Shown here piece by piece: positions 8,095-54,596 of a stretch of DNA of 64,000 nucleotides; position 1 is the stretch's first letter; every line of letters starts with the position of its first letter. Source of the stretch: the human T2T-CHM13v2.0 reference genome, Homo sapiens; assembly GCF_009914755.1 (NCBI RefSeq), contig NC_060926.1. One strand, given 5' to 3'. The notes under the pieces were generated by a model. It did no database searches. It was not told the DNA's origin and saw only the letters and a program-made list of their open reading frames with translations. Both the position numbers and the translations under genes were made by a program.

Positions 8095-8140
<46 letters not shown>

Positions 8141-12456: not shown

Positions 12457-12493
<37 letters not shown>

Positions 12494-12520
12494 TGTGTGT
12501 GTGAAAAGAGAGAGAGAGAA
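12457..12520 (+). repeat. (TG)n(AG)n microsatellite
   Basis: Direct reading. Confidence 0.95.
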
Positions 12521-13762
12521 ACTCTGTGCATTTGTGTGTGTGCTTGCTTATGTGATAACTGTTTTTGTTCCATTTCTTTAGCAGTGCAACAGTTTTAAAG
12601 AGCACCTGAGAACGACTTTGCAAACCATACCTTACCACAACCTTCCTATCCTGTTTCTATTAAGCAATTCCAGTTTTGGAAAGAAGACATTGAAAAGTGC
12701 CTCTGCTTGAGCAATTCAAAGATTCTGGACAATGTTTGCATATTATTAAACAGTCCTCTCTCAAGGCCACCAAGCCCATTACCAGTGCCTCTGCAGCTTA
12801 TCACCTGGGCAGGTTATTGAACCCTTCTTTGAACCACATCTGTAAAATACAGGAAATTGAAGCCACTGTCACAGGGTTCTCATGAGAATAAAGTGAAACA
12901 ATGTCTGTAATGGACCTAGCACAGACAAGGTGCTCAATACATTACAATTGCCTTCCTCCCTTTCACCCCTTTGCAGCACTTGGGCAAAGGCATGGCACTA
13001 TCCCCTTTCCTCCTGATGTTGCCTGCCAAAAACCTCCAGCAGAAGGCAGGTAGGACACAAGCCCACTCTGATTGGTAGCACATTCCCCTCTTTTCAGCCC
13101 TGTCACAAGTCCACAGTGACCTCTCCCTTTCCTGAACTTGATGGTACCCACAAATGCAACACCAAATAACATGCAACTGAGCACTTATTAAGGGTTCAAG
13201 TGTCTTTTGTCTGCCAACAAGGCTGTAAGCTAACAGAGGGCAGCCTTATGTTTCCTAGTCCTGTCATTTCCTCCCAACTGCCTAGGCTAATCATAGGCGA
13301 TCTGCTGGTGTTTGGCGCTGGACGTGTCAGCACAGGCCCAGCAAGTGGGGTCCTAAGGGCAGCAACCTACAAAGCCTCCAGCCTTGCCCGGCTGTGCCGG
13401 TCACACACCAGAGCTGGTGAGTCTGAGATTTGGCCTTGCAGCCACGGGAGAGTCCTCAAACCTTCCCAACACGCCAAACTTCTGCCCCCTCTGCCTGCTG
13501 AAGTTGAGTCATGCAAATGGCGACAAGGACAACCCTTGAAAGGCAAAAGTGTGCCTGATGTCAACAGTTCATTTGGAGCTCCCCTATGCTTAACGGACAC
13601 CCAGAGACCTCACAAAACCTCAACTTCTGTTACCATCACTTACTCCAGAGCATGGTGAAATGTACCTCCTTGAATACTGAAGCCTTCTATTTTGCTTTCC
13701 TGAACTCTTGGTATTACTGGGACAACATTACACCATCAATTCGAGAGGTTTCTTGCAACATG

Positions 13763-14224
13763 TTCCAGCTACACGGGAGAGTGAGGTGAGAGGATTGTTT
13801 GAGGCCAGTTCCAGCTACACGGGAGGGTGAGATGAGAGATTTTTTGAGCCCAGAAGTCTGAGGTTACAGTGTGCTGTGGTCATGCCATTGCACTCCAGCC
13901 TGGGTAACAGTGTGAGGCCCTGCAAGTTAACAATGAGTTAACATAAATATTTATTGGATGGATGAATGAATGAATGAATGAATATGGGATTGCTTAGATC
14001 AGTCAGACCTGTGGAGAACCTTAACATCAGTCAGTGCTAACAATGTGGGTATAAAAACCAGGCCAAGCAGTCGCAAGTTCAAGAGCCCAGGGGAGTGGAA
14101 ATTTGAAGTGGCCCAGTCAGTGGGCATGAAGAGAGGCAAAGTGTCAGGGCCCCAGGTATGAAGCACCAGCCATAGAGGGGGCTTGACAATGGAGAAAACA
14201 CCATCACCAGTGAGAAACCTCTTG
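13763..14224 (+). repeat. Local duplicate of 19901-20317 (Alu right-arm fragment plus flanking sequence), with its first ~45 bp present twice
   Basis: Hand alignment of 13809-14224 vs 19901-20317 gives ~31 differences in ~417 bp; an extra copy of TTCCAGCTACACGGGAG...TTTGAG lies at 13763-13806. Confidence 0.93.
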
Positions 14225-16959: not shown

Positions 16960-17600
16960 CAAAACACAAAGGGGACAGGGAGAGGATGGAGTGAGATAAT
17001 TACAGGATCCTGGAGAAGGTTAACCTGGGAAAGGAAGACAGATATTTTTATATGCCAATTTTTATGACACTGAGAAGTAATATCTTGGCACACAAAGGAC
17101 AGATAGGTTTATAAATCACAGAAACACGCTCTCAGTAGCTCAATTAGCTTGGTGCAAGATTAAACTCTTGGTCTCTCTCTGCTGTGTAGAGCCTTCTGAT
17201 CACTGACCTTCAGCTGTCTGTCCTCCAGCTTAGGTCAGGCCATCACTCTGTTAGACCTCAGCCCTGACAAATACTTTGTAAAGCCAAGGCCACAGGCTGG
17301 TCTTCTGCTTTGGCTCAAAACACTTTCCCAAATGCTACAAAATCCCCTAAAGCCTACCCACAGAAATTCCCAGAACTTGCCTCTCCTCCAAGGTCCTCCC
17401 AAGCATCTTCTGACTGTGTTTCTTACTCTTCCTAACAGGTAACAGTGTTAGTACATTCATTACCACCAATTCACAGGTGGCTGCCAGCTCCTGACAATGC
17501 CCTTTTCTAAAACCTCAAGTCCTCAAGAGGGCTCCCCAGGGCCTTGGGAGGAAGCAGCCCGGTCTGCAGTATGTGCCATTGTGTGCCCCATCTTTCTCCC

Positions 17601-18156
17601 TGTTAGATATGAGTTCTAAGTTTCTTTTCAAAGAATCAATATGTCAGTATGTTCAATTCTTTGCCTTCTACTTTTAAACTTAACTTCCTCATAAAGCAAC
17701 CTTTTTCGATTACCTGCTCCACCCTGACTCATTCTGATTACCTGCTCCACCTGACTCATTCCGATTACCTGCTCCACCCTGACTCATTCCGATTACCTGC
17801 TCCACCTGACTCATTCTGATTACCTGCTCCACCTGACTCATTCCGATTACCTGCTCTGTCATAACCATTTTTCCTGCCAAACCACTCACCCTGTCACTCT
17901 CTTTAAATTAGCCAATCAGAATTATTTTAGCCTGTGCAGTCTAACCCTAACCAGTAGGGGAACGACACAGCAGCAGGGGCCACGTGTGTCAGGGATAAGA
18001 ACCCCTTCCCCTCCCTTGTCCAAGTGTGCACTCACCATTGCTCCATCTGTAAGGGTGCATCCTTCTATAGAAGTAACTTGCCTTGCTGAGAATTAAAAAG
18101 AGAATTTTGTATTCAAGTACAATTTCTTTTGTGGCATCAAAACTTTATTTATAACA
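17601..18156 (+). mobile_element. LTR10F (HERV-I family) solo LTR with internal VNTR
   Basis: TGTTAGATATGAGTTCTAA...TTTATAACA; TSD TCCC at 17597-17600 and 18157-18160. Confidence 0.88.
17708..17856 (+). promoter_or_regulatory. 27/28-bp tandem repeat carrying five AP-1 (TGACTCA) motifs
   Basis: Units start at 17708, 17736, 17763, 17791 and 17818, with a partial unit at 17845; TGACTCA at 17725, 17752, 17780, 17807 and 17834. The repeat is directly visible; the regulatory role is inferred. Confidence 0.85.
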
Positions 18157-18510
18157 TCCCCTCCCACCCAGCCACTTCCCAGTAGAGCTCACATTCTCAA
18201 ATCCCTTTGATGCCTCATCCTACCCAGCCTCCCCCCATCCTGGACCCACTTTTTGTAACAGTGATTTCTCAGGAGAAGTGCTGAGGCACACAATTTCTTT
18301 TTAGAACATCTTTTCTGAGTTTAGGAAATTCTCCAAACCTGGAAATGCCTCTCCCCTTTCAGTCAGGAGTTAGAAACGAAAAGGCATCTTGAAAAGATAA
18401 AATCAGAGGACCAGTGGATGGCTCCTGGCGCTGCTGCTATTAGCCCTGTGACTCTGAGTAGGTAACTTGAGAACTCTGAGTCTCCATCCCCTCATCTGTA
18501 AAACAGGCAT

Positions 18511-39789: not shown

Positions 39790-42700
39790 GTTTTTAATCT
39801 TTTAATCTTATTTCCATAGGTTTTTGGGGACAGGTGGTATTTGGTTACATGAGTAAGTTCTTTAGTAGTAATTTGTGAGGTTTTGGTGCACCCATCACCC
39901 AAGCAGTATATATTGAAACCAGTTTGTAGTGTTTTATCCCTCACCGCCTTTCTACCTTTCCCCCCTGAGTCCCCAAAGTCCACTGTGTCATTCTTATGCC
40001 TTCACATCCTCATAGCTTAGCTCCCACCACTATGAGTGAAAACATATGATGTTCGGTTTTCTGTTCCTGAGTTACTTCACTTAGAACAATATTCTCCAAT
40101 CCCATCTAGATTGCTGCACATGCCATTATTTCATTCCTTTTTATCGCTGAGTAGTTTTCCATCACATACATACACATATATGTATGTATACATATATGTA
40201 TATATGTGTGTGTATATATATGTGTGTGTGTGTGTATATATATATATGTATATATATATATACACCACAGTTTCTTTATCCACTCATTGATTGATGTGAT
40301 ACATATATACCATAGTTTCTTTAACCACTCATCGATTGATGGGAATTTGGGTTAGTTCCACATTTTTGCAATTGTGGAACTATAAACATGCTTGTGCAAA
40401 TATCTTTTTCATGTAATGACTTCTTTTCCTCTGGGTAGATACCCAGTAGTGGGAGTGCTGGATCAAATGGTAGTTCTACTTTTAGTTCTTTAAGGAATCT
40501 CCACTGTTTTCTATAGTGTTTGTACAGTTTACATTCCCACCAGCAGTGTAGAAGTGTTCCCTTTTCACCACATCCACGCCAAAATCTATTATTTTTTTAT
40601 TTTTTGATTATGGCCATTCTTGCAGGAGCGAGATGGTATCACATTGTGGTTTTGATTTGCATTTCCCTGATCATTAGTGATGTTGAGTATTTTTTCTTAT
40701 GCTTGTTGACCATTTGCATATCTTCTTTTGAGAATTGTCCATTCATGTCCTTAGCCCAATTTTGATTGGATTTTTTGTTTGTTTTCTTGCTAATTTGTTG
40801 AGTTCATTGTAGATTCTGGATATTAGTCCTTTGTCAGATGTATAGATTGTGGAGATTTTCTCCCACTCTGTGGGTTGTCTGTTTACTCTGCTGACTGTTC
40901 CTTTTGCCATGCAAAAGCTCTTTAGTTTAATTAAATTCTGCCTATTTATCTTTGTTTTTATTGCATTTGCTTTTGGACTCTTCGTCATGAAATCCTTGCC
41001 TAAGCCAATGTCTAGAAGGGTTTTTCCAATGTTATCTTCTAGAATTTATAAAACTATAAAGTTTCAGGTCTTAGATTTAAGCCTCATTCCATCTTGAGTT
41101 GATTTTTGTATAAAGTGAGAGATGAGGATCTAGTTTCATTCTCCTACATGTGGCTAGCCAATTATTCCAGCACCATTTGTTGAATAGGGTGCCCTTTCCC
41201 CACTTTAAGTTTTTTGTTTGCTTTGTTGAAGATCAGTTGGCTGTAAGTGTTTGGGTTTATTTCTGTGTTCTCAATTCTGTTCCATTGGGCTATGTGCCTA
41301 TTTTCATACCAGTACCTTACTGTTTTGGTGACTGTAGCCTTATAGTATACTTTGAAATCAGGTAATGTGATGCCTCCAGATGTGTTCTTTTTGCTTAGTC
41401 TTGCTGTGGCTATGCACACTCTTTTTTGGTTTCATATGAATTTTAGGATTGTTCTTTCTAGTTCTGTGAAGAACGATGGTGGCATTTTGTTGGGAATTGC
41501 ATTGAATTTGTAGATTGCTTTTGGCAGTATGGTCATTTTCACAATATTGATTCTACCCATTCATGAGCATTGGATGCGTTTCCATTTGTTTGTGTCATCT
41601 ATGATTTCTTTCAGCAGTGTTTTGTAGTTTTTCTTGTAGAGGTCTTTCATATCCTTGGTTAGGTATATTCCTATTTTTTTTTTCGCAGCTATTGTAAAAG
41701 GGGTTCAGTTCTTGATTTGATCCTCAGCTTGGTTTCTGTTGGTGTATAGAAGAGCTACTGATTCGGGTACATTAATTTTGTATCCTGAAACTTTGCTGAA
41801 TTCACTTATCAGTTCTAGGAGCTCTTTGGAGGGGTCTTTAGGGTTTTCTAGGTATACATTCATATTATCAGCAAACAGCAACAGTTTGACTTCCTCCTTC
41901 CTGATTTGGATGCCTTTTATTTCTTTCTCTTGTCTAACTGCTCTGGCTAGGACTTCCAGTACTATGTTCAATAAAAGTGGTGAGAGTGGGCATCCTTGTC
42001 ATGTTCCAGTTCTCAGACGGAATGCTTTCAACTTTTACCCATTTAGTATTATGTTGTCTGTTGGTTTGTCATATATGGCTTTTATTACATTAAGGTATGT
42101 CCCTTGTATGCCAATTTTGCTGAGAGTTTCAATCTTAAAGCGATGCTGGATTTTGTCAAATGCTTTTTATGTGGCTGTTGAGATAATCATGAGATTTTTG
42201 TTTTTAATTCTGTTTATGTGATGTATCACATTTATTGACTTGTGTATGTTAAAGCATCCCTGTATCCCTGGTATGAAACCCACTTGATCATGGTGGATTA
42301 TCTTTTTGATATGTTGATGGATTCAGTTAGCTAATATTTTGTTAAGGATTTTTGCATCTATGTTCCTCAGGGATATTGGTCTGTAGTTTTCTTTTTTTGT
42401 TATGTCCTTTCCTGGTTTTGGTATTAGGGTGATACATGCTTCATAGAATGCTTTAGGGAGGATTCCCTCTTTATCTTGTGGAATACCATCAATAGGATTT
42501 GTACCAATTCTTCTTTGAATGTCTGGTAGAATTCAACTGAGAATCAGTCTGGTCCTAGACTTTTTTGTTGGTAATTTTTTTTATTACCATTTCAATCTTG
42601 CTGCTTTTTATTGTTCTGTTCAGGATATCTAATTCTTACTGATTTAAGGTAGGAAGGTTGTATCGTTCCAGGAATTTATCCATCTCCTCTAGGTTTTCTA

Positions 42701-50479: not shown

Positions 50480-51480
50480 ATCTAGAAATTATACCACATC
50501 CACCCATGTCTCTTCATTTCCACAGTATCCACCTTAAGCTGAGCCACCAACATCTCTTTCTTAGGAAATGACAATATTTACTCCTTGGTTTCCTTTCTCT
50601 AACTTTAGCTCCCTCTGATCCGTTTGCTACAGTGAAAAGTGATCTTAAAACAAAACAAAAACAAAAATTGACCAAGTTACTCTTCTCCTCAAAATCCTTC
50701 AACAACTTCCCCACTGCAGTAAAATTGAAAACCCCTCATGAGGCCTGCAAGTGCCTGCATGCTCTGAGCCCTGCTCCCTTGAGTGTCTGCACAGTCTGAG
50801 CCCTGTTCCCTCAAGTGTCTGCACACTCTGAGCCCTGTTCCCTTCAGGCCTCATGCTGTCTCAGTCTCCCCGCTGTACCCACCACAAATTAGGCTTCTGG
50901 AAGCCATCAAACCCTTTTTCAGTTCAGGTCCTTTGCTTAAACTTCCCATTTGTTCTAGAGCTGTGCTGTCCAATACAGATGCCACTAGCCACATGTGGTT
51001 TTTAAGAAATATGTATTTTTTCATTAATTAAAATTAAACAAAATTTAAGATTTATTTCTCAGTCACACTAGACACGTTTTAAGTGCTTGCTAGTCACATG
51101 TGGCTGATGGTTACCATATTGGACAGCACAACAGTTCTTTTGGACAGCACAGTTCTGGGACATTTTTCCCCACACTTGAGCTTAGCTAATTCCTACCCAT
51201 CCTTCAAGTCCAACATTCCATAGAGGCCTTTTCTGACCCTCCACTCTAAATTAAGGGTCCCCGCTTTATTTCTCACAGAACCTGCAATTTTCCTTTTCAG
51301 TTCTTCCAACTCTTTGCAAAATTATAGTTACGTGTCTGACTGTTTAATATTCATGTTTCCTATTAAGATCTAAGGCAGTGTCTCTTTTGTCCACCTGTCA
51401 ATCCTCAGCCCCTGTCTCAGTGCCTGGCACTTAGCAGGAGCTCATTCATGTTGAGTGAATGAATGAAATAATGAATACGT
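50480..51480 (+). mobile_element. L2 3' fragment with a MER3/MER33 insertion at ~50957-51155
   Basis: Ends cagtgcctggcacttagcaggagctca...gttgagtgaatgaatgaa; internal ctgtgctgtccaata...tggacagcacag. Confidence 0.7.
50749..50844 (+). repeat. 3 x 32-bp minisatellite
   Basis: Consensus AAGTGTCTGCACACTCTGAGCCCTGTTCCCTT; units start at 50749, 50781 and 50813. Confidence 0.9.
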
Positions 51481-52270: not shown

Positions 52271-54596
52271 CTTCTCAGGGTATAACATTTAACCCCGGGG
52301 AATACTGGGAGGATGGTTCCGATAAGCCACTCACTGATCCTCCTTTAATGTTTATACAATTTCATTTTTACATCAAAAGATCATTTACCAAACACCTACC
52401 TAGTGAGTTATTGAGTTTATTACTATTATTTGGAACTCATAAACTCACATGAGGAATTTTGTCAGGCTTAAAGGGGGTGCCAACCCACTCTTCTGCCCAG
52501 AGTTACCTGCAGCAGCAAGCCATCCTGCAGACTTCCATGGGGTAAGTGTCCACAAAAGTCACTGGAAGTCCCCATTGGTAGTCATTTAGAAGGACGCAGT
52601 GTAATCAAAGGACCATCACTGTTGTCTTGAATGGGTCGTGATTTAAAATTGCTGGTCTTTTTGGTCTTTAATGATAATTTATATTTGTTTCATCACTATC
52701 AATTTGTTTTCTATGGGTGATATGGTTCACCCTACAGTATGTAGGCAAGCAGGTTGGCATCAGTATAAACCATGGCCTACACATTCCTAATAACTAGAAC
52801 TTAAGGCACGCAGCTTGCTGTTCAAATATAAATAACCTCAAAGCCAAAGCAGATGTGTGTATACGTAATCCCTTCAAAATCTGCATGAGATTGATATTTC
52901 ATCATAGTAAGCGTGTTCATTTCCCACATGAAATTGTAAAGGCAGTGGGTAGGATAGTGGTGCCAGCAGAGACATTTAAGCAGCCCTGAGCCAGGCTCTG
53001 AGCAGAGCTCTTGTCATTTTTCCTTTTTTTTTTTGCTTTGGGAAGAAAAAGATATCTTCCCCTGGCACCCTAGGCCCACCTCCTTCAGGCAGAATTGCCA
53101 GTTCCTCTGGCCCCTGCCTCACCCCCTTCCAGAGTTCTCTCTACTTAACTCCACCCTCAGGCTCCACCCTTGAAGGGCACAGCCCAGCTGTACTGAGTTG
53201 AGGTTTTTCTGACCCTCAGAAATAAGCAGTTAGCAACATCCCCAGCGCCTGTCTTCTTTCTGCTCTTCCCAGGGGGCCCTTGACTCACCACCAACCCACA
53301 GGGGAAACCACAGAGCACAGCAGCCCAGCGCCGACTGCACCTCCCCGGAAAAGTTCCTGGAGGTTCAAGAATGGCTCCTCTATGTTGACTCCCTGTCTCA
53401 TCTCAGGTGCCATGCTGGACTTTTATATACGGGGTCTTAACCCCCCACCACAGCACAAGCCAGCAAGGTGGGGCTTCATGCAAATGAGGCGGCTGAGGGT
53501 CAAAGCAGTGTGGTGGCCACCCCTCACCAAACTGAGCCTGTTCCCAGTAACTACTCCCTTTACCGTCCCATGCTGGAGGCCAGCGCCCAGCCAGCTCCTC
53601 TCTGTGCCTTTTTTTTTTTTTTTTTTGGTTTTTATTACATCCAATCCCATTTATGTGAATGTGCACAAAAACAGCAAGATCTTGCTGGTTTGGAACTAGG
53701 ACATACTTAATTTTAAAAAATATTGAGGATTATTTACACATAGTGAAATGCATAGCTCTTAAGTGAACCATTCAATGAGCTCTCGGGTGCAGCTGGACCA
53801 AGTTAACAACAAAGCAGTACACAGGGGTTTAGCTAAGAGGCCAGGATGAAGAAACTAGGAAAGGAGCCACTCACCCTCACACAGCTGTACCACCCCAAGT
53901 TCCCCTTCGCATTCCCACTGAGGGCCTGCTGACATCCTGTTTAACATGACTGTCAAAACAACTCTTGTTATGCTATCTCAGCCATGTTTATGAGAGCAAA
54001 ACCACTTGGGAGTAAGCCAAATGTCCATTAAATAAACTACAGTGCCATCCATACAATAGAAAATACCATTGAGAAAGAACATTAATAGACACGGAAAGCT
54101 GCCTGTTAAAGGCACCTCATAAAACACCAGTGTTAACAGTTGTTCTGAGTGTCCGGATTATGGGCAACTATTATATTCTTCTTCTGATTTGCCAGTACTT
54201 TGTGCAACAAATGTAATAGTAAATAAATTTTATTTGTTGAAGGTGCTTGGCTCTACATTGTTACATCTGGAGGAACAGGGTGTACACAGGAAGTGTAGAA
54301 ACGCTACAACAGCAATCTCCCTGACAGAACTGAGATGAGCAGCGGGGAACGCCTACATGCCCTAGGACAGGAATCTGTGGCTGGCTTTCTCTGGTTCAGA
54401 AGGTCTTACTCTGTGCAAGAGCTTGCACACATATCTCATCATTTGGAGGAAACTAACTGGTTAGCACCCCAGGCAAGGCTGGCTGTTCTCACTGCCCCTT
54501 CCATGTGGTTTACTGCCTCTATGGTTTTGTTCTTCCCACTCCCTCTTGCTGAAGAGCCCTCTGGCATGGCTCAGCAGATGTAAAGTCTATCCATCC

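What the first reader, a model, noticed from the sequence alone, without database searches (positions are those of the whole stretch)
17708..17856. LTR10F carrying a VNTR of five tandem AP-1 sites: candidate copy-number-tuned, MAPK-responsive enhancer
Seen: five 27/28-bp units (28,27,28,27,27) plus a partial unit, each with a perfect TGACTCA, inside an intact solo LTR ~17 kb downstream of the EHD3 stop. Established: LTR10A/F elements carry AP-1-motif VNTRs and can act as FOS/JUN-dependent enhancers in epithelial tumour cells. Inference: this copy may be an inducible enhancer for neighbouring genes (EHD3, and from recalled gene order XDH or CAPN14), with strength varying by repeat number. The 28/27 alternation suggests expansion by a 55-bp dimer.
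Basis: partly seen in the sequence, partly recalled or inferred. Interest (0 to 1): 0.75.

Follow-up and report, generated by a model that had tools for sequence, protein, structure and literature searches.

The report
Old solo retroviral LTR with AP-1 repeats
This is an ordinary, roughly 25-40-million-year-old solo LTR of the known LTR10F/HERVIP family whose built-in tandem repeat carries five AP-1 sites, and nothing available here shows that this copy regulates a gene.

Summary
Window 17708-17856 holds five units of 28, 27, 28, 27 and 27 nt plus a 12-nt partial unit. Each full unit has a perfect TGACTCA. The array lies inside a full-length solo LTR (17601-18156, + strand, TG...CA ends, 4-bp target-site duplication TCCC).

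The LTR is LTR10F-type. It is 81-91% identical over its whole length to many copies in the same genome, and only 68-77% identical to LTR10A-type copies. All five motifs sit in the context that Ivancevic et al. 2024 print for LTR10F. Four proviral relatives carry a tRNA-Pro-like primer-binding site, which fits the HERVIP (HERVIP10F) group, a class I gamma-like ERV.

Divergence (K2P about 0.10 to other copies; 0.109 and 0.122 between the LTRs of two related proviruses) dates the family to about 25-45 My. Print gives 30-40 My.

One locus-specific point emerged. The 27-nt unit is almost unique to this locus (3 of the 4 such motif pairs in the genome). This array is also the most uniform of the 26 arrays compared. 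So units were copied in place after insertion. The 55-nt dimer model is possible but not needed.

Enhancer activity, target genes and human copy-number variation could not be tested. No RefSeq functional element overlaps the LTR, and no paper searched links LTR10 to EHD3, XDH or CAPN14. This is a known kind of element and of low interest.

The parts
17597..17600 (.). Left copy of the 4-bp target-site duplication (TCCC)
   Evidence: The same four bases follow the LTR. Other solo copies in the set also show 4-bp duplications (for example L002, L012, L013, L017, L019 and L029).
17601..18156 (+). Full-length solo LTR of the LTR10F type (HERVIP/HERVIP10F group, class I ERV), 556 nt, with TG...CA ends
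   Evidence: other copies in the genome align to positions 1-556 of 556 at 81-91% identity. LTR10A-type copies are only 68-77% identical; the motif context matches the one printed for LTR10F; no second copy in the window.
17708..17856 (+). Tandem array in the inferred U3: units of 28, 27, 28, 27 and 27 nt plus a 12-nt partial unit
   Evidence: The 12-nt partial end unit is shared with most of the other copies compared, so it is the ancestral end of the array.
17725..17731 (+). AP-1 consensus TGACTCA, unit 1
17752..17758 (+). AP-1 consensus TGACTCA, unit 2
17780..17786 (+). AP-1 consensus TGACTCA, unit 3
17807..17813 (+). AP-1 consensus TGACTCA, unit 4
17834..17840 (+). AP-1 consensus TGACTCA, unit 5
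17912..17916 (+). CCAAT motif downstream of the array (promoter element by inference only)
   Evidence: The surrounding 8-mer is kept in 20 of 29 other copies.
17981..17986 (+). CACGTG E-box
   Evidence: kept in 14 of 29 other copies. PMC466953 lists USF1 ChIP-seq among the factors shown over LTR10A/F. That USF binds CACGTG is recalled.
17994..17999 (+). GATAAG, a possible TATA-like element (inference)
   Evidence: the surrounding 9-mer is kept in 17 of 29 other copies. Its function was not tested.
18092..18097 (+). ATTAAA, a likely polyadenylation signal near the R/U5 border (inference)
   Evidence: present in 21 of 29 other copies. There is no AATAAA in the LTR.
18157..18160 (.). Right copy of the 4-bp target-site duplication (TCCC)

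Best explanation
The feature is the U3 enhancer repeat of a solo LTR10F. A HERVIP-group (HERVIP10F, class I, gamma-like) provirus inserted here about 25-45 million years ago. It was later reduced to a single LTR by recombination between its two LTRs. The tandem 28-nt unit with an AP-1 site is a family trait carried in by the virus. At this locus a one-base-shorter (27-nt) unit arose and was copied to three of the five positions by slippage, unequal exchange or conversion. That copying left an unusually uniform array with all five AP-1 sites intact. By analogy with the family, this copy is most likely silenced in normal tissue and has only latent AP-1/MAPK responsiveness. The identity, age, family and in-place turnover are shown. 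The silencing and the latent responsiveness are inferred.
For: Structure: TG...CA ends, a 4-bp duplication, and a full-length match to many copies. Family: 81-91% identity to F-type copies against 68-77% to A-type copies (12 loci). All 5 motifs sit in the context printed for LTR10F in PMC466953. There are 193 adjacent pairs of that context in the genome and 0 in the reversed-pattern control. HERVIP link: Vargiu 2016 and Kojima 2018 pair LTR10F with HERVIP10F. Four related 5' LTRs are followed by a primer-binding site that matches tRNA-Pro at 14-17 of 18 positions, the best of 51 tRNA genes compared. Age: the K2P distance outside the array is 0.10 on average to 28 copies (range 0.073-0.139). 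It is 0.109 and 0.122 between the LTRs of two related proviruses. Print gives 10-19% LTR divergence and 30-40 My for the group, and about 30 My. Turnover: 27-nt motif spacing occurs 4 times in the genome, 3 of them here. The array has the lowest between-unit divergence of 26 arrays, 0.6 substitutions against 1.6-5.0. Silencing and latent activity: PMC466953 reports H3K9me3 and KRAB-ZNF binding in normal tissues and AP1/MAPK-dependent activity in tumour cells for the family.
Against: No Dfam or Repbase library was available, so the subfamily name rests on similarity to unlabelled genomic copies plus an 11-nt motif context quoted in one paper. The search of the window's own genome scored only 40 of 787 first-look candidates, so the distances come from the closest relatives and may understate family diversity. 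The insertion itself was not dated by presence or absence in other primates, because no primate genomes can be reached here. Uniformity of the array could in part reflect selection rather than turnover. Nothing here measures the chromatin state of this copy.
Confidence: 0.85

Rival explanations
1. One reading: this copy is an active, AP-1/MAPK-inducible enhancer for EHD3, CAPN14 or XDH, and its strength varies with unit number between people.
For: Five intact AP-1 sites, against three in the family reference sequence as described in PMC466953 and PMC10113160. The paper reports that motif number correlates with H3K27ac and FOSL1 signal, and that LTR10A/F arrays are polymorphic. The array shows turnover in place. 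The EHD3 and CAPN14 start sites lie about 49 kb away and the XDH 3' end about 50 kb away.
Against: There are no data on this copy. No RefSeq functional element overlaps it. Neither EHD3, XDH nor CAPN14 appears in the main text of either LTR10 paper. Zero papers hold LTR10 together with any of the three genes. Only 71 of 649 LTR10A/F elements were predicted enhancers in HCT116. JUN binding is reported as weaker on LTR10F than on LTR10A in trophoblast stem cells. Five motifs is common: 7 of 30 copies have five. The supplementary tables that list the individual elements were closed.
Confidence: 0.1
2. The array is uniform because selection has preserved the AP-1 sites (exaptation), not because units were copied in place.
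For: All 5 sites are intact, and there are no non-CpG differences between units. Across 115 units of other copies the 7 core positions differ from the window's unit less often (3.2%) than the other positions do (6.1% without the CpG positions; Fisher p = 0.0017).
Against: That contrast comes mostly from three positions where variant units are shared between copies. Without them the non-core share is about 3.9% against 3.2% (hand sum of the columns). Units are not independent. In other copies 91 of 115 units keep the motif, so five of five is unremarkable (about 0.3 by hand). Selection does not explain why the same one-base deletion sits in three units, and uniformity extends over the whole unit, not just the motif.
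Confidence: 0.07
3. The LTR belongs to LTR10A or another LTR10 subfamily rather than LTR10F.
For: LTR10A also carries an AP-1 tandem repeat. No reference library was available here to name the subfamily directly.
Against: Copies picked by the printed LTR10A motif context are 68-77% identical to this LTR. Its own group is 81-91% identical. None of the five motifs has the A-type context, and all five have the F-type one. Other LTR10 subfamilies are reported to lack the AP-1 motifs.
Confidence: 0.03

Closest known systems
LTR10F, the LTR of HERVIP10F (HERVIP group, supergroup HERVIPADP, class I gamma-like ERV)
   Same: Full-length similarity to the multi-copy family. The printed LTR10F AP-1 context is present in every unit. 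There is a tandem AP-1 unit of about 28 nt, a 4-bp target duplication, and divergence in the published 10-19% range.
   Different: Five AP-1 units instead of the three described for the family reference sequence. Three of the units are 27 nt, a length found almost only at this locus.
LTR10A (sister subfamily, also paired with HERVIP10F/FH in Repbase)
   Same: Homologous LTR with a tandem AP-1 repeat in the same position. It is reported to bind JUN/FOSL1.
   Different: A different motif context and a unit of about 29 nt. Only 68-77% identity to this LTR.
CRISPR-tested LTR10 enhancers in HCT116 cells, such as LTR10.ATG12 and LTR10.XRCC4 (PMC466953)
   Same: The same family, and the same AP-1 array as the presumed active part.
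   Different: Those copies have measured H3K27ac, FOSL1 binding and effects on genes. This copy has none that I could see, and it is not named in the main text.
VNTR of SVA elements
   Same: A tandem repeat inside a retroelement that changes length and may change regulatory output. PMC466953 draws this comparison itself.
   Different: A different element class and unit, with no AP-1 sites. SVA is still mobile in humans, while LTR10 insertions are all reported as fixed.

Membership tests
LTR10F (HERVIP10F LTR, ERV1) | LTR ends TG...CA with a short target-site duplication | tested here: met
   the ends read TG...CA, and TCCC lies on both sides. Other solo copies in the set also show 4-bp duplications.
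LTR10F (HERVIP10F LTR, ERV1) | Full-length similarity to the other copies of the subfamily, and clearly less to the sister subfamily LTR10A | tested here: met
   81-91% identity over positions 1-556 (52 matches listed; 40 of 787 candidates scored); 68-77% identity to 12 A-type loci. The labels F and A rest on the motif contexts printed in PMC466953.
LTR10F (HERVIP10F LTR, ERV1) | AP-1 motifs in the LTR10F-specific context, inside a tandem unit of about 28-30 bp | tested here: met
   5 of 5 motifs have the printed F context. The units are 27-28 nt, one base below the published 28-30 range in three units.
LTR10F (HERVIP10F LTR, ERV1) | Best match to the curated LTR10F reference sequence (Dfam/Repbase) | not testable with these tools
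   No repeat library is on hand. The soft-mask track carries no family names.
LTR10F (HERVIP10F LTR, ERV1) | Proviral copies with this LTR carry HERVIP10F internal genes | not tested
   Internal regions were not fetched, to avoid taking in an envelope gene. Indirect evidence only: related 5' LTRs are followed by a tRNA-Pro-like primer-binding site, and related 3' LTRs are preceded by a purine tract.
AP-1/MAPK-dependent LTR10 enhancers | Multiple AP-1 consensus sites | tested here: met
   five perfect TGACTCA.
AP-1/MAPK-dependent LTR10 enhancers | FOSL1/JUN occupancy, H3K27ac and open chromatin at the copy in MAPK-active cells | not testable with these tools
   No epigenomic data can be reached. 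No RefSeq functional element overlaps the LTR. The supplementary element tables of PMC466953 are closed.
AP-1/MAPK-dependent LTR10 enhancers | Linked expression of a target gene | not testable with these tools
   Zero papers hold LTR10 together with EHD3, XDH or CAPN14.
VNTR (length-polymorphic tandem repeat) | Tandem head-to-tail units | tested here: met
VNTR (length-polymorphic tandem repeat) | Unit number differs between individuals | not testable with these tools
   Reads and other assemblies are switched off. Only evolutionary turnover in place is shown.

The most novel reading that the evidence does not exclude
This copy is a length-variable, AP-1-dependent enhancer that is switched on in MAPK-active epithelial or trophoblast cells. 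It acts on the shared EHD3/CAPN14 promoter region or on XDH. Its locus-specific 27-nt units mark recent and perhaps ongoing array turnover that changes its output between people.
Probability: 0.08. Interest if true: 0.4.

Novelty: already known. Interest (0 to 1): 0.18.

Why it matters
LTR10A/F arrays are a documented source of AP-1-dependent, length-variable enhancers in cancer and placenta. If this copy proved active, it would add one more locus (EHD3/CAPN14/XDH) to that list. The only observation here that goes beyond print is small. A 27-nt variant unit, almost unique in the genome, has spread through this array. That gives a clear single-locus example of the unit turnover the published work infers from population data.

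Tried and rejected
Tests that led nowhere or argued against a reading:

- **Chance cluster of AP-1 motifs: rejected.** The motif is not enriched across the window. The five sites come from one tandem array that is a family trait.
- **55-nt dimer expansion: neither supported nor excluded.** TRF scores period 55 only slightly above period 27 (279 against 268). The last three units are 28, 27, 27. The C/T states at the unit ends (T, C, C, T, C) do not repeat with period 55. Both T states are at CpG sites. The closest relatives already have five units (L002, L003 and L004), and the fourth unit ends in T in L002, L003, L005 and L006. By my own event count, a five-unit ancestor plus spread of the one-base deletion needs no more steps than the dimer model.
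- **Selection on the AP-1 core: no convincing signal.** See the second rival explanation.
- **tRNA-Ile primer site, as the name HERV-I would suggest: not found.** tRNA-Pro is the best fit of the 51 tRNA genes compared, and no tRNA-Ile gene is among the top 12.
- **Rfam scan of the window: no family at gathering score.**
- **Literature link between LTR10 and the neighbouring genes: none.** Searches found 0 papers each. In one search, 15 of 28 papers were listed, all with 0 occurrences of LTR10.
- **The T2T epigenome preprint:** it discusses only HERVIP10FH-int and does not mention LTR10.

Not done:

- Naming from a core gene. Fetching proviral interiors risked taking in an envelope gene, and the LTR plus print sufficed.
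- Presence or absence of the insertion in other primates, human unit-number variation, and chromatin or binding data. None of these sources can be reached here.
- The supplementary tables of PMC466953 (element lists, motif counts, predicted targets) were closed. They may well list this copy.

How the papers were read: PMC466953, PMC10113160, PMC5753468, PMC4724089 and the bioRxiv preprint 10.64898/2026.03.19.712972 were read as passages returned by 'find'. All other papers were seen only as search listings.

Full report
**What is there.** Reading window 17400-18400 shows a tandem array at 17708-17856. It has five full units of 28, 27, 28, 27 and 27 nt and a 12-nt partial unit. Tandem Repeats Finder reports the same stretch as period 27 x 5.5 (94% matches) and period 55 x 2.7 (96%). 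It is the top-scoring tandem repeat of the whole window. Each full unit holds a perfect TGACTCA, at 17725, 17752, 17780, 17807 and 17834. Across the window the motif is not enriched: 21 found against 13.5 expected, and 7 of 100 shuffles reach 21. So the cluster is the product of tandem duplication. The units differ only in a CCC/CC run and in a C/T at the last base, which sits in a CpG with the next unit's first G.

**The element around it.** A search of the window's own genome with 17601-18156 returned 52 listed matches (787 first-look candidates, 40 scored). Many of them cover query positions 1-556 of 556 at 81-91% identity.
- The LTR begins with TG and ends with CA, and it is flanked by TCCC on both sides.
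- Other solo copies in the set also show 4-bp duplications.
- A blastn of the LTR against the window finds no second copy, so it is a solo LTR.
- It lies on the + strand. Relatives that are 5' LTRs of proviruses are followed by a primer-binding site at the end that corresponds to 18156. Relatives that are 3' LTRs are preceded by a purine tract.
- Downstream of the array lie CCAAT (17912), CACGTG (17981), GATAAG (17994) and ATTAAA (18092). This places the array in U3, upstream of the promoter. That layout is inferred, not tested.

**Family.** No repeat library is available here, so I named the element from the LTR and from print.
- Ivancevic et al. 2024 (PMC466953, passages read) print the AP-1 motif contexts of the LTR10F and LTR10A reference sequences.
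- All five motifs here have the F context. That context occurs as adjacent pairs 193 times in the genome, against 0 for the reversed-pattern control.
- Copies picked by the A context (16 pairs, control 4) are only 68-77% identical to this LTR (12 loci).
- Frost et al. 2023 (PMC10113160, passages) state that only LTR10A and LTR10F carry AP-1 motifs, three in each family reference sequence.
- Vargiu et al. 2016 (PMC4724089) and Kojima 2018 (PMC5753468) pair LTR10F with HERVIP10F. This is the HERVIP group, supergroup HERVIPADP, class I gamma-like.
- I compared the 35 nt after four related 5' LTRs with the 3' ends of 51 annotated human tRNA genes. tRNA-Pro fits best (17, 15, 14 and 14 of 18), and no tRNA-Ile gene is among the top 12.
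- This fits HERVIP better than HERV-I in the strict sense, although PMC466953 uses the name HERV-I for all of LTR10.

**Age.** Distances were computed outside the array.
- The K2P distance from this LTR to 28 other copies averages 0.10 (range 0.073-0.139), or 0.087 without CpG sites.
- All 406 pairs among the 29 aligned copies average 0.115.
- The two LTRs of each of two related proviruses differ by 0.109 and 0.122.
- With the rough rule used by Vargiu et al. (percent divergence x 2.5) the pairs give about 27-30 My. By hand, at 2.2e-9 per site per year they give about 25-28 My, and at 1.2e-9 about 45-50 My.
- Print gives 10-19% LTR divergence and 30-40 My for HERVIP, and about 30 My in anthropoids for LTR10.
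- These figures date the family. The age of this insertion was not checked by orthology, because no primate genomes can be reached.
- The sample is the closest 29 of several hundred candidates, which may understate diversity.

**History of the array.**
- In the 29 other copies the units are almost always 28 nt, and they carry several unit-private substitutions.
- This array has the lowest between-unit divergence of the 26 arrays with three or more full units: 0.6 substitutions per unit pair against 1.6-5.0.
- By hand: at about 0.044 non-CpG substitutions per site since insertion (half of 0.087), about six private changes would be expected in the array. None is seen.
- A 27-nt motif-to-motif spacing with both contexts intact occurs four times in the whole genome, three of them here.
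- So a one-base deletion arose here and was copied to three of the five positions. Units were duplicated or converted in place after insertion.
The closest relatives already have five units, often with a T-ending fourth unit. A five-unit ancestor with spread of the short variant is therefore at least as simple.

**Is the AP-1 site protected?**
- Across 115 units of 28 nt from the other copies, the seven core positions differ from the window's unit in 3.2% of cells. The remaining positions differ in 6.1%, leaving out the CpG positions (Fisher p = 0.0017).
- The excess comes largely from three positions where variant units are shared between copies. Without them the figure is about 3.9% (hand sum).
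- Units are not independent, and the way unit starts were found biases the first 12 positions towards similarity.
- In other copies 91 of 115 units keep the motif, and 7 of 30 copies have five motifs. Five intact sites are not unusual.
- I see no convincing sign of selection on this copy.

**Function.** What is established for the family comes from passages of PMC466953.
- LTR10A/F are bound by FOSL1, JUND and other AP-1 factors and carry enhancer marks in HCT116 and in tumours.
- They respond to MEK inhibition and to TNF-alpha.
- They are H3K9me3-marked and bound by KRAB-ZNF/TRIM28, with ZEB1/2 signal, in normal tissues.
- Their AP-1 array is length-polymorphic, and motif number correlates with H3K27ac and FOSL1 signal.
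- Only 71 of 649 elements were predicted enhancers of AP1/MAPK-dependent genes.
- In trophoblast stem cells JUN binding is weaker on LTR10F than on LTR10A.

For this copy I could test nothing beyond sequence.
- No RefSeq functional element overlaps it.
- The main texts of both papers do not mention EHD3, XDH or CAPN14.
- No paper in the library holds LTR10 together with any of the three genes.
- The supplementary tables that list the individual elements were closed.
The EHD3 3' end is 14.0 kb upstream. The EHD3 and CAPN14 start sites, 195 bp apart, are about 49 kb upstream. The XDH 3' end is 50.5 kb downstream and its start site 131 kb downstream.

**Verdict.** The enhancer interpretation is a reasonable but untested extrapolation from a known family. 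From the published share of active copies and the five intact motifs, I put it at roughly one in ten that this copy regulates a neighbouring gene. The feature is already known in kind. The one added point is the spread in place of a nearly locus-unique 27-nt unit.

Noticed in passing
window 17711-17853 (six sites, one per unit): Every unit also contains TACCTG (reverse complement CAGGTA). From recall this resembles a ZEB-type E-box. PMC466953 shows ZEB1/ZEB2 ChIP signal over LTR10A/F and names ZEB2 as a predicted repressor. So each unit may pair an activator site with a repressor site.
   Followed up: partly
window 17981-17986: A CACGTG E-box lies in the LTR downstream of the array. It is kept in 14 of 29 other copies. 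USF1 is among the factors shown over LTR10A/F in PMC466953.
   Followed up: partly
L003, L004, L008 and L014 (first 35 nt after the LTR): The primer-binding site of F-type proviruses fits tRNA-Pro (14-17 of 18), not tRNA-Ile. Yet the cancer paper calls the whole LTR10 family HERV-I.
   Followed up: yes
G000 C1:73024998-73026002; C5:116441270-116443056; C6:162673599-162674386; C2:241341223-241342046: Other F-type copies in the reference carry much longer arrays, seen as many overlapping matches to the unit region. They illustrate expansion of the same repeat elsewhere.
   Followed up: no
G000 C4:136136170-136136207: The only other place in the genome with a 27-nt spacing between two intact F-context motifs. 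It appears to be an independent one-base loss.
   Followed up: no
window 17925-17960 and 18112-18156: The soft-mask track covers 17599-17924 and 17961-18111 only. Other copies show that the LTR runs to 18156. The last 45 nt and a 36-nt internal stretch are left unmasked.
   Followed up: partly
window 13743-13853; 40176-40341; 50749-50844; 8096-8136; 12457-12503: Other tandem repeats in the window: a 46-nt unit x about 2, 24- and 45-nt AT-rich units, a 32-nt unit x 3, (AC)n and (GT)n. None was examined.
   Followed up: no
window 53166-53235: RefSeq lists a 'silent region_11330' functional element here. It is the only functional element in the window.
   Followed up: no
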